Positions 521 through 61,830 of a stretch of DNA of 64,000 nucleotides are shown one piece after another. Origin of the DNA: Octopus vulgaris (taxonomy: Eukaryota); NCBI GenBank assembly GCA_951406725.2, contig OX597823.1, forward strand, positions 72,106,001-72,170,000, in the 5' to 3' direction. Position numbers and translations under genes: made by a program. The notes beneath the pieces were generated by a model, which did not search any database, was not told the DNA's origin, and was given only the letters and a program-made list of their open reading frames with translations. The number at the start of each line of letters is the position of its first letter. Within the stretch, counting starts at the first letter, position 1.

Positions 521-813
521 GGTAATTAGATGTATTAGTAGAAATATATGTATGTATACGTACATATATATATATATATGTGTATGTGTGTGTATGTGTG
601 TGTAAGAGGGCGCGCATGTATATATGTATATATGTTAACGGTTATATTTAATTACTTTTTTCGCTGTAGCGTGTATTCGTTACTTTTTGCATCTGTTATT
701 TAATTTTGATCATATATAAATATGAGGCTGTTTCTTTTAATTTGCGGATTTTCTATACACAAACCGAGAAGTTATCTTACGGAATAGTCGTTATTTTAAC
801 GAGATACATCTTG

Positions 814-923
814 TAATCACCCGAAGAGACACATCTACACCGTCAGATACTCCTAAACCAATTGTCAAATATCCCACCTGTGAGGGATCGATGCTAGGTG
901 GGTCGAAACAATTGTAATGATTA
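814..923 (+). ncRNA. Type I hammerhead ribozyme motif with long stem II
   Basis: Stem I TAATCA(C)/(A)TGATTA; core CCGAAGA (821-827); stem II GACACATCTA/TAGGTGGGTC (9/10 pairs); GAAAC-AATT-GTA (905-916) with palindromic ACAATTGT; AATAAA immediately downstream. Confidence 0.7.
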
Positions 924-967
924 ATAAATATTCTCGTATGTTCCATTTTCCGTCTCTCTCATTAGTC

Positions 968-1022
968 ATATATATATATATATGTATACACACACACACA
1001 TACACACACATACACACACACG

Positions 1023-10875: not shown

Positions 10876-10952
10876 ACGCGCGTGTGCACATATACATACA
10901 TATATAAAATAATTTTAATACGAGAAGATGGAATGAACATGCTTTATTACAA

Positions 10953-11060
10953 ATCCCTACAATTGTTTTGACGCATCAGCTGGTAATTGTTGAATGTTCC
11001 ATATATTATACACGTTAATGCGATCCAACGATAGCTGCATAAATGCACGTCTTCGGGTGA
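10953..11060 (-). ncRNA. Degenerate hammerhead motif of the same type as 814-923
   Basis: Minus strand: TCAC-CCGAAGA-CGTGCAT...ATGCGTC-AAAAC-AATT-GTA-GGGA then AATAAA; GAAA is mutated to AAAA. Confidence 0.5.
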
Positions 11061-11884
11061 GTAGACTCCACAGCACTACTAGATCATCTTCAGTTTGTCT
11101 TTGTTTTAATACCCACACCATTATGATAATCTTAACATTCGACTGACGAAGAACAACAGGGAAATACAAAGACATTCAAATGAGAAAAATACCAAATTTA
11201 AATCATTGAAAATACATAAAAAATAAAGAGACAGATATGTCTCGACTTTTAGGAAAATAAACGAACGTTCTAAGATAATAACGTCGTAAAATAATAAATT
11301 TGAGCAATTACTCGCCCCTTGTGTGTATTACTCATACCAGACTTTGTCACAGTTCCTCTACAAGTATTTAAGTGAGACTATCAAATCAAGAATATTTACT
11401 TCCACGCACCCTTATACATACATTTACTTGACACTAATTTACGGACATATATCTATTTAGACAAACAGTTACACTTTTCGTTCTCATGAGTGTATATTTT
11501 GTCAAGCTACTCCACTTATAAACCTCTGAATGCACTCATATAATTTTTTTTTCTATATTTATACCCATTCATTTAGAATTTTAAGTATATACTAAAGAAA
11601 AATAAACGATATATAACGTCCTGGGAGAACATTATTAAGTTTGATCGTTCCGATCTACATAGTTCTATAAATCGTGATATGTCTATTCACGTATGATAAC
11701 GTAACAATGGAAATACATGCCATATTCATGGTAGGTCTCGCAGGTTCATATATCTCAGAACATCATGATAAAGAAAGCTATCCTATAGCTCTTACACTTT
11801 TAACCAAATACTTTTACACACATACAAATTATTATGAAATTACATAATTTAGTTAAACAACAATATAATCGTACTAATACTAAT

Positions 11885-12874: not shown

Positions 12875-13009
12875 TAATGTAATATATAGAGTTTCTTCTG
12901 AGCTTTTGAGTATGTATTATATATGTGGTATCGAGAGTAAATTTTCAGCCTCTATACCTCTCTGATACCATAGATTTCTACCGTTCAATATCAAAATCTT
13001 TTTCTTTAA

Positions 13010-14300
13010 AGCCTCTAGATTTTGTTAAGCTATTATCCATGATCAGTGACCATGAGATCAAAATCCTGAAAAACACTAAGAAATCAGTCTTACTCTCGAT
13101 TATATATACCGGGCGAATGGTGGCACACAATTCAACCTATCCACTTGGATAGGTTGAATGGGAGTGGTGGTGTTGACTTCATGGGGCAGTTCATCCTGGA
13201 TAATCTCAGCAAATATACACAAACTCACAGTTCGGTACTATACAAGGACTATGGCCTGGCCATATATAACGATATGGGCGGTTATACACTGGACGAGTCC
13301 AGACTATTTGTTATGAACAATTTTAAAGTGTTTTGTCTATCCACTACTTTCACCACCAACTTAACAATATTTCACTTCTTGGATTCTACTCTGGACCTCG
13401 AAACGGAGAAATATTACCCCTGCAAAAGAAAAAACAAACACAAAAAAAAGAAACATTGAACAAGGAAACTGTTTACGTTCACAAACGACTATCCTCCTGT
13501 TGTTATCAGAAACTTGGTCACAGGTATCAGCAGAAAAAATTACTAACTTACCATCGCATAAAGAGATGTTTAAGAGGGTACCACCTGATTATAAGAGGTT
13601 CTAGTAGAATTGCTTTTGTGTACATGGAGAACCTGCAACTACTTCTCCAAACCTAAGAAATTTACGAAAAGATAATTTCATATAAGCTTCTACTATAGCT
13701 AGAACCTTCCTAATTTTAATTAAGCAATTTTCCAGGAAATCCATTGATATAAAGCTTTTCACATAATATTAAGATCAGTTATTCGTGTTTACATAATATC
13801 ACTTCCAGCGTTGAACAAACAAGCATCCACACAATGTCCATTCCACACTCCCACATGCAACTTTCGCAATCTATACAGATGTCCACTGGGAGGGATTTGC
13901 CTAACGAAAGCCGTAGTTTATAGAGAACCTTCATACTAACCGATGGTATTGCGCGCTATTAAATGGTCATAATGGCCAATAACTCTAAGGTCACATACTC
14001 TCTTCATATGTACTTCTTCAGAAGGAAGGAGAAGAACAGCTAGTCCTGATTCATCTTGAGAATCAAGACCACAGTTACACCTAAACTGACATCCAATGGA
14101 TTATAGATGTCATATGACATGATCTCGCCTTACACACGCAGTGCTCGAAAGTGCCAACTATGCCTCCGAGAAAAACTGCGCATACTTCAACAGCCTACAA
14201 TAACCATTAACATAGAGAAGGGTATTTTATATTGCTGTCATTGGAGATAAGCGCTTTTGGCATATTTCAAGTCATTGACCTTCGACAATCTCGATATACA
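13010..14300 (+). pseudogene. Decayed Penelope-like retroelement (RT C-terminal half + GIY-YIG region), Naiad/Neptune-like
   Basis: Broken-frame motifs VLYKDYGL (cf. GLYRDDGL), HFLDSTLDLETEKYYP, VYVHK, IKISYSC, CNFRNLYRCPLGGICLTKAVVYR (13856-13924), KCQLCLREKLRI; ends next to (TG)n. Confidence 0.8.
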
Positions 14301-15241: not shown

Positions 15242-15249
15242 CCATAATT

Positions 15250-15320
15250 TGCATCGGCCGGGAATCGAACCCGGGCCGCCCGCGTGGCAGGCGAGCATTC
15301 TACCACTGAACCACCGATGC
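15250..15320 (-). tRNA. tRNA-Gly (anticodon GCC)
   Basis: GCATCGGTGGTTCAGTGGTAGAATGCTCGCCTGCCACGCGGGCGGCCCGGGTTCGATTCCCGGCCGATGCA: canonical 71-nt cloverleaf, perfect acceptor stem, A and B boxes, TA-rich sequence about 25-45 nt upstream. Confidence 0.98.
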
Positions 15321-15854
15321 AATTGCTTCTGTTGCAGGCCTAAAATATATATAAATATATAATAATATACAAGCTAAGAGTTTTCTGCTCGCTCTTCACA
15401 GAAAGATATCAGTATTCTAATCTATTGAAATACTGAAATATATTGATCCTACTCTGTTCTGTTAACGTTTATCATAAACAGGCCCTTCCTCTATATTTAC
15501 GTGCATTGGCTGGAATTATCTAAAGATTTCCTTATGATTGTGTTTATGATACCTGTATGCTTCCATTCACACACCTCTATTTAAAAGCGATCATTTTTCA
15601 TTTCCATTAATGGCTGAAATATTGGTGAAAGTAGAAATGGTAAATTCGAATTACCCGCATTTTTTTTTATATCTGTTACTTTAGAAACAGGTACAGGCGT
15701 TCCTTCATTCTAACTCGACAAAACCATAACCAGATCTTGGTTGATTCCGTGTCAACTCGACAATTCACTTCGGATATGTTCGTGACCTCCATGACAGTGT
15801 ACGTGTTCTGTTTTCATGTATTTATGTGGTGTGGAATATAGATATAACGAAATT

Positions 15855-18081: not shown

Positions 18082-20837
18082 TATGTTTGACTTTTGCTTT
18101 ATATTTGTACAAGTTGGCTCCAAGTCTCACCCAGAGACCTCAAGAGACAACAGGGTTGGAAGTTCATGTTGTTGTTATGCCTAGTGTGCCATATATTTGG
18201 GGGGTGGGGATGTTGTACTAATGAATGTCTAAAAAAAAAAAGTTTTTTTTTTTTTTTTTTTTTTTTAAACCGAAAATTATGTTTGTTTTAAACCTTGAGA
18301 TTACATAGAGAGTATTTTGCGTAGGATATGAGCAGTTCCCATGAGCACTATCTTTTGAACTTCTGCCATTTTGGGGTTTCCTGGTATCTGAGTTAGGTAG
18401 CTATCAGCCCCTTTTGCTATCATTCCCAGGGCACCTATGACAACAGGTATTGTTTTAGTCTTCAGCTTCCACATTTTGCTGATTTCTATTTCAAGATCTT
18501 TATATTTGCTCAGTTTTTGGTAGGTCTTGACAGATACGTTTATATCGATTGGGACAGTCATATCAATGAGGAGGCATGTTCTTTGTTTGAAGTTTTTCAA
18601 TATGATGTCTGGCCTATTTGCATCTATCTTCCTGTCAGTTTGAATGGTGAAGTTCCAGAGGAGTGAGATGTGGTCATTTTCAAGCACTGGGGGTGGTTTG
18701 TGTTCCCACCAGTTTTTTTCATGGGGCAAATCCAGGTTTTTACAGATTACCCAGTGAATATATTGTGCAGCTCTATCGTGCCTGTTGAGATACTCTGTAG
18801 GCGCTAGAAGACTGCACTTGGAGACCACATGGTCAATGGTTTCATTTTGTTGCTTGCATACACGACACGTTGGACTGCTTCTGATCTTTAATATGTTGGC
18901 CTGGTAGTTTCTTGTTGGTAGGCATTGATCTTGAGCTGCTATGATAAACCCCTCTGTTTCAGATTTTAAGCCAGAGGCCATTAGCCATTGATGGGTCAGG
19001 GCTTTGTCGATATCTGCATTATTCGCTCTCTTTGGGTATTTGCCATAGAGAGGTTTTTCTTGCCATTTATTATTCAGAATATCTAAGGCCGCAGTTTTGG
19101 CACGGGTTTTCATGCGCCTAGCTTTTTCTGTGCTTGTTTCTTGTATATCTATCTCTAATTCCGAAATTGGTTGTATTCGGAGTTCACTTAGATATTCCTT
19201 TGCCTGTTTTGTGACTGAGTATGATGCTTTCTTGTTTTCATGTTTTGAGACAAGTTTTAGCATCCAGTCCTCAGAGTTTTTCAGGTAGGTGTCTAGGCCA
19301 ATTGTAGCAATCTTCATTGTTATTGCCAGTTGCAAAAGACCACGGCCTCCTCTTTTCTTGGCAGATAGAGTCGTTCTGTATCTGCCTTAGGGTGGTGCAT
19401 TCTATGCATTGTCAACAGTTTCCTTATTTTTCTGTCGAGCTGACATATTTCAGTAATTGACCAGTTAACAATATTGAAACTGTAAGTCACGACTGGTATA
19501 GCTAATGCATTGATTGCTTCGATCCTGTTTCTTGCATTCAGCTCTGTCTTGAGTATTGCTCTCACTCTTCGATAGCATTCTCTCCTGATCCTTTCCTTCA
19601 TCTCTGAATGCCTTATTCCGTTCCCTTCAATTATCCCTAGGTACTTGTAGCTCTCCGCTGGGTCTAGTTCTTTTATGACATTCTGTTGGTCAAGGTTAAC
19701 GTTAGATGTTTCTGTCATTTTTCCTTTGATAAAGGTAGCCTTTGCACATTTATCGAGGCCGAATTGCATTCTGATGTCGTCACTGAATTGTTTGACTATC
19801 GCTAGTAAGCCCTTGAGTTGTTGATCATTTTTTGCAAAAGCTTTAAATCATCCATGTAAACGAGATGATTTATATTTTTATCAAACATTTTATACCCGTA
19901 CTGCGCATCATTGAGCAGCTTTGAGAGAGGTATTAAGGATAAACAAAAGAGGAGTGGTGACAGTGAGTCACCCTGGAAAATGCCACACGAAATTTTTACA
20001 TCACCAGCATTTAGGGATTCACTGTCACTGTTCAGAGTTAGTGTGGTTCTCCATGATCTCATACTTACAGTCAAGAAGTTTCGCAGAGTTGGTGCTATCT
20101 TATACATTTCAAGGCATTCCCTAATCCAGCTATGTGGTAGGCTATCAAAAGCCTTTTTATAGTCTATCCAGGCTATTGATAAGTTTTTGTGTCGTTTGTG
20201 ACAATCTTCTAAGATCATCTTATTGATGAGTAGTTGGTCTTTACAGCCGTAGGATCCACGTTTACATCCTTTCTGTTCATTAGGGAATATGCTGCTGTCT
20301 GTTAAAAAACTATAGGTATATTCCGTCAGGACAGATGTTAGTGTTTTGTACATAGTTGTTAAGCAGGTTATGGGTCTATAGTTTTTTGGTTCATTTGTTT
20401 CTTCACTTTTTGGAAGCAGGAATGTTAACCCATTAACTAGCCAAGGAGGCATCCTACTAGGGTGTTGCAAAACATCATTGTACAGTTCTGTTAGCAGTTC
20501 ATGGCTCTCTGGGAAGGCATTCAGCCAGAAGTTAGGAATTTTATCCTTTCCTGGAGACTTCCATTTGCTTGACCTCCTGAGAGCAGATCTTATATCTTCT
20601 ACCTTGACACCCTCCCACTTTTGCTCTTCTAAGGGGTCCAGTTCTGTAGATATTCTGTCAATCCAGGGGGCCTTTTCGTTGTGTGTTTTTTCTTCTGCCC
20701 AGATTTTATTCCAAAATCTCTGCACTTCTTCTTTTGATGGTACAGACCCTGCAGTAAACGCTGTTTTTCCTATCTTCCTGTAAAAATTCTTGGTGTTATT
20801 TTTGAACATGTTGTTGTCCTTGAAAAATCTAACACGC
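18081..20837 (-). mobile_element. R4/Dong-clade non-LTR retrotransposon (restriction-like endonuclease type), 5'-truncated, in (TAA)n
   Basis: RT motifs NYRPITCL, WIDYKKAFDS, QGDSLSPLLF, YMDDLKL; CCHC CRVC..ETIDHVVSKC; RHD, RPDI, IDMTVP, K..KY endonuclease motifs; ~220-bp 3' UTR; (TAA)n at both ends. Confidence 0.93.
18301..20836 (-). CDS. RT/zinc-knuckle/RLE polyprotein, N-terminally truncated, two 1-bp frameshifts (~19837, ~19349)
   Basis: Three ORF-track segments (20809-19802, 19769-19320, 19335-18301) join into one ~845-codon stop-free frame if one base is restored at each short homopolymer (gives KLFAKNDQQL and RKEGGRGL). Confidence 0.85.
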
Positions 20838-46914: not shown

Positions 46915-47746
46915 GTGCATGCATCCCTACATTCATACATAGATACATGGCCCAAAATCTGTTTGCAGTACCAGTACTCATACTAACATTTGGACTGCTT
47001 GAATGGACGCTTGGTGAGATCCGAGCCAATGATGTGAAAGCCCGAAAGGAATGTTACAGGTATCTAAGAGTGGATGAAAATATATCTTACAATGGCACCT
47101 GTAACAAGACCCGTTTCAACAAAGGATAGTACAGCCGAATAAAGAAAATTTAGACCTCAGAACTATCTGCATTCAATAAAATAGTGGCCCACAATGTGTT
47201 TGCAGCTATTGATGTGAAAATCTGAAAAATACTAACAAGCACACATAAATTCCTTATAAACAGTGATTTAGACTGCTTCGAACTAAAACGAGAACAAGGT
47301 GGAAGTGGGTTAGCATTGATCCAAATTGTCTTTTGATGTTGCATCATCCTTTCACCTGATGAGTTATGTGATCTCTTTCATAGACTTACACCTGTTGTTT
47401 TCCATATGAAAACGTGCACCCAGAACTTTCATGCAGATCATAACTTCCCCGGAGCTATATAAATGATGTGCGTGTGTGTTTTTAAATGATTTCCATAATA
47501 AAGGTACCTCTTCAAAATGGCTCCCAGCAAACTGTCAAATTCTGTTTGAGCACTCAGCCCTGATTGCACACTTATTTATGGAAAAAACAGCGGTGCGTTT
47601 ATTAAAGTGATTACGTAAGTCTAGTTCTTATGTCATTCATAAATTCGAACCTCATTGTTTACTATAAAGAATGAGCATACTGATTTCTTTCTACTGGTAT
47701 ACATATGTACATACATAAATATATACATACATACTTACATATGTGC

Positions 47747-48195: not shown

Positions 48196-48949
48196 AAAAG
48201 AATTGAGATAAAATTAAAATAATTATAATCGCTGGTATTTCTAACACAAGCCATATATTTTCCATATATCAGTACATTAAGGCGAAATATGTGCTAGGAA
48301 CACAGAAGCTAGATAAATTTAGTGAAATGAAGATAAAAACATTTACTAACTCTGTTACTCTCAGACTGCAGTTTCTTTTTTTCAGCAATAAAAATAATTT
48401 ATTTGCTCAGGGAGAATTCATCAGTAAGAGCCCTGTTGTTCTGAGATCCTAACTCACTAGAAGCATGTGCTTCTAATGATTTACTCTCTCTAACTATATA
48501 TATAAATTCAGCAAAAACAATTAAGATTCAAGCGAATTCCAATGAATTCAAATGAATATGGTACTTAACTTAGATGCACCAGAATTCTTTACGATATTAA
48601 CCATAAAATAATGTGGGGTGATTACAACCAAGAAAAAAGCAACAAGAATGGATTAGTAGTTTAGTACAATTGTTTCATACTAAGAGCAATTTTATTTGAA
48701 GCCGCAAATATTGCAGCAAATACAAATGTCCAGTATTCATCAGCTAAATCACATATATGTTTTCCAAACATCCTAGAGGGTTTGATTATCCTCATGAAGT
48801 ATTAGGAGTGAGTTCTATGAAATTTACAGTCAAATTATAAGCAGACTTAAAATGCTTTCTAATGATGCACAGTTTTATAAAAAGTTTTTAAAAAGATTGT
48901 TAACTTCCCAGAGAAGGTGAATCCATCCATAAAAATGTTTTTTTCTTGG

Positions 48950-52175: not shown

Positions 52176-52615
52176 AAAAAGATTGACGTAACTCTTCACA
52201 AATAAGACGAAGAGCGCGATTCGATTGTAAGATATTTTATTTGAAAATGATCTCATTTCACTCCTCTGGAGGGCCAATTTCTATTTCAAGATCTTTATAC
52301 TTGCTCAGTTTTTGGTAGGTTATGACAGATACATTCATGTCGATTGGGAGAGTCATAGTAAAGCGGAGGAATGATTTTTGTCTGAAGTCTTTCAATATAT
52401 CAGAAATATTAAATTTCTAAATATCTCATAGAGATATGTACGGTGGTGGGGCGATAGAGTGGTTGTGTACTGTCAACTTAACGTGACAGTAGGGGATTAC
52501 ACCACCGCTGTTTAGCCCTAGGAAGCATCGACGCTTCCTGTCGGCTTCGACACATTTCCTGTGTCCTTATATATTTACGAAGGGGAGACAAATACCCCCA
52601 ACAGCTAGGCCTGCA

Positions 52616-52662
52616 TCTAGAGACACGCATGTTTCAGGGTCTTTGCCCATCATCGGTCTAGA
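52616..52662 (-). ncRNA. Type I hammerhead ribozyme motif (left arm)
   Basis: TCTAGA-CCGATGA-TGGGCAAAGACCCT-GAAACATGCGTGTC-TCTAGA; distal stem I CTGC/GCAG; GUC triplet. Confidence 0.7.
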
Positions 52663-52763
52663 GTAGCAGAAGTCTGGTGATCAGTGAATAAACTTCACTG
52701 AAAATTAGATATATATATTTACGAAGTCGAGACAGATATCTTCAAGTACCAGGCTTCTGATAC

Positions 52764-52810
52764 TCTAGATCGATGATGGGCAAAGACCCTGAAACATGCG
52801 TGTCTCTAGA
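52764..52810 (+). ncRNA. Hammerhead motif (right arm), core C3 mutated to T
   Basis: Same as left arm but core reads TCGATGA; probably impaired. Confidence 0.55.
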
Positions 52811-53194
52811 TGCAGGCCTAGCTGTTGGGAGTATTTGTCTCCCCTTCGTAAATATATAAGGACACGGGAAATGTGTCGAAGCCGACAGGAAGCGTCGATG
52901 CTTCCTAGGGCTAAATAGTGGTGGTGTAATCCCCTACTGTCACGTTAAATTGACAGTACACAACCACTCTTTCAATATAATGTCTGGCCTATTCGCATCT
53001 ATCTTTCTGTCAGTTTGAACGGTGAAGTTCCAGAAGAGTGAGATGTGACCATTTTCAAACACTGGAGGTGGTTTGTGTTCCCACCAGGTTTTACCATGGT
53101 CCAGGCTTTTGCAAATTACTCAGAGAATATACTGTGTTGCTCTATCATGCTGCACATGAAGACATGATCATTGGTTTCATTTCTTCTTCTTCTT

Positions 53195-58899: not shown

Positions 58900-61830
58900 T
58901 CGCTTTAGATGGTCGATGATCGTTTGCAGTTGCTGATCTCCCTTGAGTGTATCCTTGAATGGTTGGTTGGTCTGGTATCGTCGTTAAGACTGCCCCCAAT
59001 GCTTTTTTAAAGTTTCAGGAGAAGTCTCTTTTGTATTTCAAATTTCTTTGGGTAAGTAGTTGAATACTTGAGGACCTCTGAATATTAGACTGGTACAGTA
59101 GAGTGTTATTGCTCGCGTATTTGAAGATGGTATATGTGGAAGCTGACAGTACCTGCCATTTCGAGCATTAAAATTCGTTTTAATGCCGATGTTTCGAACA
59201 TTCCTCTCCAGGATCTTCCACGCGTATGTAGTAGTATACCTCTCTCTTCGGCGTTCAAGAGAACAGAGACGCAGAGCTCTCGGGCGTTCCCAGTAATTAA
59301 GACCATTAACCGAAGTTATTTTACTGGTGAATGTTTTTTGAAACCCTTCAATTTCTTCTACGGTATCGGGTGAATTTAGAGACCAAATCTGTGGGCAGTA
59401 ATCTAATCTGCTCAGATCTAAGGTTTTCCATAGAGTTACCATAACTACCGGTTCTCTTGTCGTGAATGTTCATAGGATCCATCCTATGTGATGTCTGCAT
59501 TTAGAGGTCAGTTTGGTGATGTGGCTGAAAAAAAGATGCATTATTTGGACATGATTATTCTTAAATCCCGTATGTTGTCAGTGCTCTGAATATGGCGCCA
59601 AATAATGGGATTTGTGTCTATTCCCTCCATAATGAGGGGCCTGAAATCTTTATGTATTAAATTTCATATTATTTTTATCCACCCATTGATAAATTATATT
59701 TAGGTCATTTTGGAGTGTGATGGCATCTTCTGGAGTTTAGATAGCCATTGATATTTTTGTGTCGTCACCGTAACTCATTAGGTTGGCCGATTGCACATAT
59801 AAGCTTATGGTATGCCTGATAAGCTTATGGTAAGTAATGATAGTCCTAGAACCGTACCCTGAGATATACCACTTATTACGGGTGACTTTGCTGAGATGTA
59901 ACCGTTTTCAGCAATAGGGTGATTCCTATCCCGTAGGAAGTCAAAGAGCCATTCTCTAAGTTTTCCTATGATACTAAGATCCCTTATCCTAAGATAGATG
60001 ACTCCATGATCAACCTTGACAAACACTTTAGCAAAATCAAGGTGTAAGCAGTCAGTGTCCTTTCCATTTAGGAGATTATTGAGAATAGTGTTATGGTGTT
60101 GTTATAGTTGTGTTAGGCAACCACGTCCAGTCCGAAAACCATGCTATGTGTTATCTAAGAGGTTGTTTTCCTCAAGATATGCAGTTATTCTTTTTCGATG
60201 TTTGAGACGTGAGAGAAACTTGTCTGTAAATGTTAGCTTCTGCCCTGCTACCTCCTTTATGGATAGGTGCCATTGTTGCTTCTTTCAACAGTTCTAGGAA
60301 TATGCCGGCTTCAAGCAGCTTTAGAAATAGCAACTTTAATGGCTTAGCGACGCTGCTGTTCCATTCACTTATGGCATATTTAATGTCTCTCATTATTTTA
60401 TCATCAAGTAAGGCCGCGAGCTGGCAGAAACATTTGCACGCCAGGCGAAATGTTTAGCTATATTTTGTCTGTTTTTACATTCTGAGTTCAAATTCCGCCG
60501 AGGTCGACTTTGCCTTTCATCCTTTTGGGGTCGATAAATTAAGAACCAGTTGCGTACTGACGTCGACCTAATCGACTGGCCTTCCTCCCAAAAACTTCGA
60601 GCCTTGTGCCTAGAGTAGAAAATATTTGTTAGCACGCAAAGCGTCTGTCTTTGCGTTCTGAGTTTAAATGCCACCGGAGTCGACTTTGCCTTTCATTCTT
60701 TCGGGATCAGTAAAATAAGTATCAGTTGAACACAGGTGTCGACTTACCCCCTCCCTCGAAATAACTGGCCTTGTTCCATACAATCCGATTGCTCATACTG
60801 TTTTTAAAGTATCAACAATCTCAACTCCAAACCTATCATTCAAGGGCATTATATCTATGTGATATTGATGTTCGTGCTTGTTTTTCTGTGATGGTCAGGT
60901 TTGCATTTTTAATATGTTTTTGATACATCATCGTTGAGTTTTTTTGCTGTGGAGATATTTCGTTGCTCCATCGGTGCATCTTTTATAGGTTTTAATTCTT
61001 TAATTGTTTTCAGATTGCGATTATCGTCATGTTTATGATTTCTACCATTAAAATTTCTTATTTATCTGCTTTTTCCATATTTATTTTATTCCTATTTATT
61101 GGGGTTTTGTGGTTCTCTTACTGTTTTTGTTGATCCGTATCCTGTTGTTGTATTTTAGTTGTTCCCAGGCATTCATTCTAACTCCGTGGCTTGCATGCAC
61201 AATGTCTTTATTTTCTTTTTTATATTTATATAAAAAAAATTTTTTACATGTTCATTATATGCGTTTTCGCTACGTATCCTTCTTGTTAAATGTTATATTT
61301 CAATGTTTCGATATATTTGACTTTCAGAATATTTGATGCATTTTTAAAGTTTGCTCGTCTGCGGTAATTATTCCTGTCATCCTCATCCACCACTTCCTTC
61401 TCCTCCTCGTCGTCGTCGTCTTCGATCTCCTCCTCCTCCTCTTCGTCTTCGTTCTCTTCCTCCGTCCACTTCCTCCTCTCCGTCCTCTTCTTCCTCTCCG
61501 CCCTCTTCCTCCTCCTCCTCACCACCACCACCACCACAACCACTTTTACCCAGGATGTTGGTAGTTCCAAGAAGTACCGAGATCTGTAAAATTCAATGAT
61601 TTGAATGACGTTAAATTTGTTTGGAAAGGAACCAAGGCCATCAATACTAATTGAAATAACTTTACTTTCTTCTTGAAAGTATTCAGTAACTTCATTGTAA
61701 GTTTTAACTTGACTACCAAGCAGAGCTCTGTGGGCTTTGCATATATGGATCATTTTGTTTTGGTTTTGTATTTTCCATTCTGTTGACAGTATTATGCGCA
61801 CTGTCTATACAATGTTTTATAGAGCTGTGT
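58900..61830 (-). pseudogene. Decayed CR1/L2-type LINE ORF2 (RT, probable endonuclease remnant), interrupted by SINEs and a simple repeat
   Basis: PIHKGGSRAEANIYRQVSLTS, KVDHG, SGISQGTVLG, YGDDTKI, SRLDYCPQIWS, LNYWER..L.L.SLERRRERY over 59040-60390; upstream extension to ~61830 is less certain. Confidence 0.8.
60410..60775 (+). mobile_element. Two tandem family B SINEs inserted in the LINE
   Basis: aaggccgcgagctggcagaa...gactttgcctttcatcc...gccttgtgcctagagtagaaa, then a second truncated copy. Confidence 0.85.

What the first reader, a model, noticed from the sequence alone, without database searches (positions are those of the whole stretch)
814..923. Hammerhead ribozyme with CCGAAGA core and ~75-nt stem II insert in a non-coding element ending in (TA)n
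Seen: all three stems pair, stem III is the palindrome ACAAUUGU, and AATAAA follows. Established: Penelope-like pLTRs and non-LTR retrozymes carry type I hammerheads with palindromic stem III that act as dimers. The U4C core and the very long stem II would likely evade standard descriptors. A related motif at 10953-11060 shares core and stem III but has a different stem II, which suggests the structure is conserved.
Basis: partly seen in the sequence, partly recalled or inferred. Interest (0 to 1): 0.7.

Follow-up and report, generated by a model that had tools for sequence, protein, structure and literature searches.

The report
Long-loop hammerhead in Penelope-like repeat
This is a mutated copy of a high-copy repeat whose common form is predicted to fold, in pairs, as a self-cutting RNA (hammerhead ribozyme) with an unusually long extra arm, likely the tail of a Penelope-like jumping gene; the kind is known, the long arm looks like a new twist, and cutting is untested.

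Summary
The motif is real, but this copy is a damaged relic. 814-923 lies in a dispersed repeat: 596-1414 contigs per run align in four DNA runs. In them position 822 is T in 69-78% of depth, so the usual core is canonical CUGAAGA; U4C is a minority state, already known from a viroid. The window copy has a C-A mismatch closing stem I and two stem II defects, and misfolds (stem II probability 0.0). With the nine majority letters it folds as a type I hammerhead: 10-bp stem II carrying a 57-nt branched insert (z -3.26). Two such molecules fold as the double hammerhead through ACAAUUGU. I found a third motif (48658-48750, minus) with a canonical core, the same stem III, and different, still paired stems. 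Core layout, cut site 52 nt before (TA)n and likeness to Hydra-1_Obim point to the 3' end of a Hydra-clade Penelope-like element; no ORF could be tied to it. Published Hydra loops II are 3-10 nt, so the 50-66-nt inserts are the new part. Cleavage is untested.

The parts
657..968 (+). Likely 5'-truncated 3' end of a high-copy retroelement, between two microsatellites
   Evidence: depth starts at 651-661 and rises towards the ribozyme; two multi-copy contigs (X2 record 17, X3 record 25) span 657-962, carry 742 and 2012 more bases upstream and end 26 and 22 bases after 962
814..820 (+). Stem I, 5' strand
   Evidence: pairs 6 of 7 with 917-923 in the window, 7 of 7 with the majority G at 917
821..827 (+). 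Core C3-A9; CCGAAGA here, CTGAAGA in most of the family
   Evidence: 822 is T in 69, 78, 74, 74% of depth
828..837 (+). Stem II, 5' arm (10 bp with 895-904)
   Evidence: 8 Watson-Crick, 1 G-U, 1 mismatch in the window; all Watson-Crick with majority letters at 898 and 901
838..894 (+). 57-nt loop II insert, predicted three-way junction: hairpin 845-851/868-874 with a 16-nt loop, hairpin 877-879/884-886 with a GUGA tetraloop
   Evidence: pair probabilities 0.95 and 0.96 with majority letters, 0.0 in the window copy; lowest-depth part of the motif
859..866 (+). Loop segment complementary to core/stem III strand 907-914 (possible lock)
   Evidence: -7.6 kcal/mol, 11 of 1000 shuffles with majority letters; -6.4, 14 of 1000 in the window copy; noticed after the fact
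895..904 (+). Stem II, 3' arm
   Evidence: 898 A in 96-98%, 901 T in 72-77% of depth
905..916 (+). GAA, palindromic stem III ACAATTGT (908-915), H17 = 916; predicted cut after 916
   Evidence: 916 is C in 34-41% of depth, GUA and GUC both fit the NUH rule; self-duplex of 8 bp, -6.4 kcal/mol
917..923 (+). Stem I, 3' strand; A at 917 breaks the closing pair in this copy
   Evidence: 917 is G in 82-90% of depth
923..928 (+). AATAAA in the tail; no poly(A) follows
   Evidence: also after the hammerhead in Hydra-type loci L136 and L139
969..1120 (.). (TA)n/(CA)n microsatellite, likely the insertion target
10951..11063 (-). Second, more decayed motif: CCGAAGA core, 80-nt stem II span, G12A, stem I 4 of 7
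   Evidence: (nhmmer E 0.06-0.11 against motif 1)
48658..48750 (-).
   Evidence: its stem II domain folds as a long hairpin, z -2.62, 3 of 200 shuffles
12964..14280 (+). Separate, broken Hydra-type Penelope-like RT-to-endonuclease ORF remnant (context; not joined to any of the three motifs)
   Evidence: tblastn E 1e-15 to 709-aa P0120; profile hits over positions 253-693 of 701

Best explanation
814-923 is a decayed copy of a high-copy repeat whose common form is predicted to fold as a type I hammerhead ribozyme with a long branched stem II, and it likely marks the 3' end of a Hydra-clade Penelope-like retrotransposon that inserted into (TA)n. Shown: the motif, its multi-copy family in four runs, the majority letters, two more motifs with the same stem III in the window. 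Predicted: with majority letters the monomer forms stems I and II, and two molecules form the double hammerhead, ACAAUUGU pairing between them and stem I strands swapped; each RNA would be cut after GUA/GUC (916), about 50 nt from the element's end. Inferred: the cut would free element RNA from read-through or tandem transcripts before reverse transcription; the 50-66-nt insert would be tolerated cargo because stem II closes below it. This copy is likely dead: U4C, the lost C-G at 820-917 and two stem II changes make it misfold.
For: Multi-copy: 1414, 1352, 1149 and 596 contigs laid in 4 of 4 runs from four organism labels; depth peaks on the two core-plus-stem II arms (816-837, 893-914) and dips in the insert (849-870). 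Of 14 listed differences inside 814-923, 8 fall in helices: 7 improve pairing, 1 turns A-U into G-U; the 3 in stems I and II all restore Watson-Crick pairs; 916 varies to C. Nine majority letters: MFE -30.7, z -3.26, 0 of 200 shuffles; same nine changes placed at random reach this in 1 of 500. Two-molecule MFE is the double hammerhead, -71.2 against 2 x -30.7. Third motif keeps core and stem III while stems I and II change on both sides (closing pair G-C against C-G). Hydra link: Hydra-type ORF loci carry CTGANGA(G/T)-stem II-(C/T)GAA-ACxx..xxGT-H 114-217 nt after the ORF match (4 of 10 by scanner; one more by eye, one cut by the contig end); cut site to (TA)n is 45, 48 and 117 nt in 3 of 7 sites, 52 nt here; L134 has a CTGAAGA core and a CAC/GTG stem I end like this family; Hydra-1_Obim shares CTGAAGAG, a TCTA/TAGA stem II and GCTAGAT (by eye); Hydra elements are <3 kb and insert in (TA)n, and a multi-copy contig of 2340 nt ends with this tail; 5 of 15 joints shown are strand inversions, as in PLE insertions.
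Against: No ORF remnant lies upstream of any of the three motifs, so the clade is inferred, not shown; the upstream 2 kb of the long contig could not be read. Depth shares are sums over contigs, lean towards the window's letter and are not copy counts; only 40 of 280 difference rows were shown, so linkage between letters and true covariation among copies were not measured. Inner helices of the insert were drawn with the majority letters in view; the insert alone is not unusually stable (102 of 300 shuffles). All 26 Hydra rows in Craig et al. File S2 have loops II of 3-10 nt. 4 of 7 Hydra-type sites show no (TA)4 within 260 nt; motifs 2 and 3 lie 273 and 160 nt from (TA)4. PLE hammerheads cleaved only weakly in vitro. 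No cleavage data.
Confidence: 0.7

Rival explanations
1. The repeat is a non-autonomous, non-coding hammerhead element (retrozyme- or SINE-like) moved by Penelope-like enzymes rather than the tail of a coding element.
For: No ORF beside any motif; the part seen is about 310 nt, within the retrozyme size range of 170-400 nt (PMC7229834 abstract); a 2-bp stem III with tetraloop is like invertebrate retrozyme hammerheads.
Against: No tandem unit at 1-2200; none of the 15 joints shown (of 45) goes back as a tandem or circle would; multi-copy contigs run 0.7 and 2.0 kb further upstream; depth falls off towards the 5' side as in truncated copies.
Confidence: 0.13
2. It is the terminal hammerhead of another Penelope-like clade (Penelope/Poseidon, Neptune or Nematis).
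For: All these clades carry type I hammerheads with palindromic stem III; O. vulgaris has 190 Penelope-like families, 6.83% of the genome.
Against: Stem III ACAA-TTGT matches the ACAx..xTGT type of the Hydra table and of loci L133, L134, L136, L139, not the shorter ACGCGT or ACGT types also seen in those loci; likeness to Hydra-1_Obim.
Confidence: 0.09
3. One reading: this very copy is an active ribozyme with a selected U4C core.
For: Motifs 1 and 2 both have CCGAAGA; the non-T share at 822 (22-31%) is above that at 898 (2-4%) and 917 (10-18%), so a C4 sub-lineage may have spread; a viroid U4C variant stays active in vivo.
Against: This copy's hammerhead fold is 12 kcal/mol above its MFE (-8.5 against -20.6), stem II probability 0.0, stem I closing pair lost; two window copies do not fold as a hammerhead; T is above 50% in all runs, more than symmetric CpG decay of CCG could give, and G823A is not among the 40 rows shown.
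Confidence: 0.05
4. Chance arrangement of short motifs in AT-rich DNA.
For: Window copy folds no better than shuffles; GAAACAATTGT with one mismatch occurs 7 times against 3.1 expected, 4 of 100 shuffles; the descriptor was written after seeing the motif.
Against: 0 of 40 shuffles and 0 of 72 viral controls match as well; majority letters repair the stems; depth follows the structure.
Confidence: 0.02

Closest known systems
Hammerheads of Hydra-clade Penelope-like elements, incl. Hydra-1_Obim of Octopus bimaculoides (Craig et al. 2021, PMC8557442, File S2)
   Same: Type I; CTGANGAG core with G-C or extra base at the foot of stem II; (C/T)GAA ACAx..xTGT H; about 50-100 nt from the 3' end; (TA)n target; Hydra-1_Obim shares CTGAAGAG and TCTA/GCTAGAT (compared by eye).
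   Different: Loop II is 3-10 nt in all 26 Hydra rows, against inserts of 57, 66 and 50 nt here; stem III here is a loop-less 8-nt palindrome; ORF link not shown here.
Minimal and palindromic-helix-III hammerheads in pLTRs of metazoan PLEs (Cervera and De la Pena 2014, PMC4209133)
   Same: Dispersed single motifs from truncated elements, longer than usual helix II, palindromic 15.2-16.2 region, dimer model, high variation among copies.
   Different: Helix II there is 6-8 bp with a small loop; here 10 bp plus a predicted branched domain; stem I 7 bp against 4-5.
PLE-X1_sMoe and PLE-X1_sTam hammerheads of spike mosses (same File S2)
   Same: PLE hammerheads with long loop II (35 and 29 nt), marked as deviating from the canonical structure.
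   Different: Plant, endonuclease-less, rDNA-targeting elements; loops about half as long; other stem III.
Non-LTR retrozymes (PMC7229834)
   Same: Type I hammerhead, low GC, weak palindromic helix III.
   Different: Retrozymes are tandem 170-400-nt repeats giving circular RNA, with canonical loop 1/loop 2 contacts; no tandem unit seen here.
U4C hammerhead variant of a viroid (cited in Perreault et al. 2011, PMC3088659)
   Same: Same core change.
   Different: There it is slower in vitro but viable in vivo; here it is a minority state in a retroelement family and comes with broken stems.

Membership tests
Type I hammerhead ribozyme | Core CUGANGA ... GAAA ... UH | tested here: met
   Met by family majority (822 T) and motif 3; window copy has U4C, motif 2 has U4C and G12A.
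Type I hammerhead ribozyme | Stems I and II paired around the core, open end in stem I | tested here: met
   Majority letters: stem I probability 0.92, stem II 1.0. Not met by the window copy itself (stem II 0.0).
Type I hammerhead ribozyme | Stem III, in cis or between two molecules | tested here: met
   8-bp intermolecular duplex in the two-molecule MFE; the in-cis 2-bp hairpin is unstable (+1.4 kcal/mol).
Type I hammerhead ribozyme | Compensatory changes among copies | tested here: inconclusive
   Stems differ on both sides between motifs 1 and 3, but only three motifs and per-site shares were available; no linked pairs.
Type I hammerhead ribozyme | Match to an Rfam hammerhead model | tested here: not met
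   No hammerhead family at E<=10 for 700-960 or 48600-48850; expected with a 50-57-nt insert, so this lowers Rfam filing only.
Type I hammerhead ribozyme | Self-cleavage after NUH | not testable with these tools
   Needs a bench assay.
Hydra-clade Penelope-like element | Single ORF with RT (RWK, DKT motifs) and C-terminal GIY-YIG lacking CCHH, upstream of the hammerhead | tested here: inconclusive
   None next to the three motifs in the window; the copy is cut at 657 and the longer contigs cannot be read. A separate remnant lies at 12964-14280.
Hydra-clade Penelope-like element | Hammerhead near the 3' end, insertion into (TA)n | tested here: met
   Cut site 52 nt before (TA)n; 45, 48, 117 nt in 3 of 7 Hydra-type sites; section 11 of PMC8557442.
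Hydra-clade Penelope-like element | Length under 3 kb | tested here: inconclusive
   A multi-copy contig of 2340 nt ends with this tail: a lower bound only.
Hydra-clade Penelope-like element | RT phylogeny inside the Hydra clade | not testable with these tools
   No linked ORF; no genome held.
Non-LTR retrozyme | Tandem 170-400-nt monomers each with a hammerhead | tested here: not met
   Only microsatellites at 1-2200; no go-back joint among 15 shown of 45.
Non-LTR retrozyme | Abundant circular RNA | not testable with these tools
   Only contig runs were laid.

The most novel reading that the evidence does not exclude
An octopus-like lineage of Penelope-like elements carries a self-regulating hammerhead: a branched domain grafted on stem II presents a loop (859-866) that pairs 8 bp with the palindromic core strand (907-914) and locks the monomer until a second copy displaces it, a natural riboswitch-like control of retrotransposon RNA cleavage; a sub-lineage spread with a CCGAAGA core. 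Long loop II domains arose in at least three sequence-distinct families and are invisible to Rfam and to short-loop descriptors.
Probability: 0.12. Interest if true: 0.65.

Novelty: new variant of a known kind. Interest (0 to 1): 0.33.

Why it matters
The role of hammerheads in Penelope-like elements is still open (PMC7761336, PMC8557442 passages). Published descriptors use short spacers (7-17 nt between core halves in the core search of PMC8557442), so a class with 50-66-nt stem II inserts would be undercounted, and some families called ribozyme-free may not be. If the insert only rides along, this widens the known shape of a known motif; if its loop locks the core, it offers a natural switch to test why these ribozymes cut so slowly in vitro.

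Tried and rejected
No whole genome is held, so copies could not be aligned; contigs of 4 of the 24 listed runs were laid instead. Pattern scans: 9 metagenome matches showed no hammerhead fold; 1 viral match lies in a repeat-protein gene; 0 in genome contigs; 120 viral loci served only as a chance control, 48 of them dropped for lacking a 7-nt core at the tested spacing, and 3 of the 72 left (one identical sequence) reached stem I 5/7. Hydra-type ORF searches in viral contigs found none; word-index protein search of the remnant found none; Pfam has no hit for the remnant or for full-length relatives. Four other GAAACAATTGT-like sites (9622, 34499, 44324, 57241) have no fitting core and stems. 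The loop-to-core complement is not above chance in motifs 2 and 3 (284 and 191 of 1000). A CTCCT..AGTT..GAG hairpin in the tails of L133 and L139 resembles a minority form of the insert hairpin, but the pattern was fitted afterwards and has no match in the window: lead only. An attempt to name the host from a LINE ORF gave no usable names; 'octopus-like' rests on recalled likeness of the SINEs and microsatellites and on the by-eye match to Hydra-1_Obim. A covariance model from Hydra-type loci was not built: the three well-aligned rows were 86% alike. Earlier-findings look-ups by sequence, place and the first word set were blank. Paper searches showed no report of long-loop-II hammerheads in cephalopod repeats; Lunse 2017 and Arkhipova 2017 are not held and may describe such forms.

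Full report
Observation. But the copy is not intact. The stem I pair next to the core (820-917) is C-A, stem II has one mismatch and one wobble, and the RNA is predicted to misfold: part of the insert (859-865) pairs with the palindrome, MFE -20.6 kcal/mol, no better than shuffles (85 of 200), stem II probability 0.0 and the hammerhead fold at -8.5. Rfam gives no hammerhead at gathering score or at E<=10. The arrangement is still beyond chance: a descriptor written after seeing the motif gives two hits in the window with stem I 6 of 7, and 0 of 40 shuffled windows do so (7 of 40 at 5 of 7); of 72 viral loci that hold both core strings at a similar spacing, 0 reach that pairing.

It is a repeat family. 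No genome is held. Public runs of five organism labels share words with 640-960. I laid 4 of the 24 listed runs at 80% likeness: 1414, 1352, 1149 and 596 contigs aligned, most under 90% identical. Depth starts near 657, climbs, peaks on 816-837 and 893-914 (the two core halves with the stem II arms) and dips over 849-870 (the insert). So the cores and stem II are shared by more relatives than the insert is; two single contigs replace about 50 nt of the insert by 6 or 10 letters (table 5c). Two contigs at roughly four to five times the depth of their neighbours span 657-962, carry 742 and 2012 more bases upstream and end 22-26 bases after 962, which suggests a young family at least 2.3 kb long whose 3' end is this tail (inference; the contigs cannot be read). 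Caveats: depth sums are not copy numbers, lean towards the window's letters, and only 40 of 280 difference rows were shown.

The family's common letters repair the ribozyme. Fourteen shown rows lie in 814-923. 822 is T in 69-78% of depth, giving canonical CUGAAGA. Of 8 rows in helices, 7 improve pairing and 1 changes A-U to G-U; the inner helices were drawn with these letters in view, but stems I and II were proposed beforehand and 3 of 3 rows there restore pairs. With the nine letters above 50% in all four runs the MFE is the type I hammerhead (-30.7, z -3.26, 0 of 200 shuffles; same changes placed at random 1 of 500), with stem II branching into a 7-bp hairpin with a 16-nt loop and a 3-bp GUGA-capped hairpin. 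Two such molecules fold as the double hammerhead: both stems II intact, an 8-bp ACAAUUGU duplex between molecules, stem I strands swapped (-71.2 against 2 x -30.7); two window copies do not. This is the dimer model of PMC4209133 (parts 1-2 of 4 read) and PMC6765202 (passages). Monomer activity is not excluded: invertebrate retrozyme hammerheads with a 2-bp stem III cut as monomers (PMC7229834 and PMC7761336 passages).

U4C. T above 50% cannot come from symmetric CpG decay of an ancestral CCG alone, and G823A is not among the shown rows, so U4 is the main state. Yet the non-T share (22-31%) exceeds that at 898 and 917, and the second motif also reads CCGAAGA, so a C4 sub-lineage is possible. 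U4C is known from a viroid, slower in vitro but viable in vivo (PMC3088659, passage).

Other motifs in the window. The second motif (10951-11063, minus) is real but more decayed: G12A and stem I 4 of 7; it shares a TTCCATCTT-like tail with the family and is motif 1's best non-self nhmmer hit (E 0.06).

Which element. No ORF remnant adjoins the motifs. A separate broken ORF at 12964-14280 matches 700-aa proteins with the RW(R/K)AF, DKT and CxCX5C marks of the Hydra clade (clade marks from section 11 of PMC8557442). Using those proteins I fetched 10 Hydra-type loci that sit as likely host contamination in bacterial bins. In 4 of 10 a scanner found a type I hammerhead 114-217 nt after the ORF match, one more (L134) was seen by eye, one (L131) is cut by the contig end, three have 20 bases or fewer after the match and one match ends mid-ORF. 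Their layout, CTGANGA(G/T), stem II, (C/T)GAA, ACxx..xxGT, H, is ours, but with stem II spans of 13-24 nt. The cut site lies 45, 48 and 117 nt before (TA)n in 3 of 7 sites (none within 260 nt in 4), and 52 nt here. In File S2 of PMC8557442 (supplement parts 2 and 52 read, searches) all 26 Hydra rows have loops II of 3-10 nt; Hydra-1_Obim of Octopus bimaculoides shares CTGAAGAG, a TCTA/TAGA stem II, GCTAGAT and an upstream AAC(G/T)GTTAT with this family (by eye; no alignment was run). The longest loops II in that table are 35 and 29 nt, in spike-moss elements. The host looks octopus-like (recalled likeness, not tested; one search gave no names); O. vulgaris has 190 Penelope-like families, 6.83% of the genome, and that paper's main text does not mention ribozymes (PMC13282606 passages and supplement search). 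Retrozyme membership failed its tandem test.

Mechanism. Most likely: transcripts that run through tandem or neighbouring copies bring two hammerheads together through the palindrome and are cut after GUH about 50 nt from the element's end, which frees element RNA for reverse transcription and insertion at (TA)n. The fold and dimer are predicted; cutting and its role are inferred from the cited work, where PLE hammerheads were weak in vitro. The insert is most simply tolerated cargo above a strong stem II. One hint of more: its 16-nt loop is complementary over 8 bp to 907-914 (-7.6 kcal/mol, 11 of 1000 shuffles), which could lock the monomer; this was noticed afterwards, could equally be an old duplication of the palindromic core half, and does not hold for motifs 2 and 3.

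Verdict. A real but dead copy of a Penelope-type hammerhead; new variant of a known kind because of the 50-66-nt loop II domains. Nine paper searches showed no description of such motifs in cephalopods, but the library is partial and two key papers (Lunse 2017, Arkhipova 2017) were not held and were seen only as citations; supplements of PMC4209133 were not read and may list long-loop forms. Interest 0.33.

Noticed in passing
   Followed up: partly
window 12964-14280 (+): Broken Hydra-type Penelope-like RT-to-endonuclease ORF, ending at a (TG)n tract with no hammerhead behind it; Pfam misses both it and full-length relatives.
   Followed up: partly
window 18301-20836 (-): Nearly open non-LTR retrotransposon ORF in three frames (RVT_1 E 1e-20, zf-RVT; endonuclease-like tail), flanked by (ATT)n.
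   Followed up: partly
window 52453-52973: Inverted repeat with 226-nt arms, 96% complementary, 69 nt apart; MITE-like or fold-back.
   Followed up: no
window 15249-15321 (-): tRNA-Gly(GCC), 66.7 bits, the only Rfam hit at gathering score.
   Followed up: no
L131-L140 (MAG contigs JAAEPJ, CBDDTI, CBDDBN, JAAESD, JAKROC): Animal Hydra-type Penelope-like elements with hammerheads sit in bacterial genome bins, likely host contamination; L136 holds four hammerhead motifs within 1.3 kb and L133 an inverted pair.
   Followed up: partly
L133:4041-4066, L139:4240-4266: Shared small hairpin (GCTC-CT..AG-TT-GAGC) in the tail behind the hammerhead, resembling a minority form of the insert hairpin at 845-874; pattern fitted afterwards.
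   Followed up: partly
window 59038-59469 (-): 143-aa open frame that looks like the C-terminal end of an RTE/CR1-type LINE ORF (recalled likeness; no Pfam hit).
   Followed up: no
window 47353-47410 (+): CACCTGATGAG followed by a short hairpin but no GAAA; possibly a decayed hammerhead half inside a LINE fragment.
   Followed up: no
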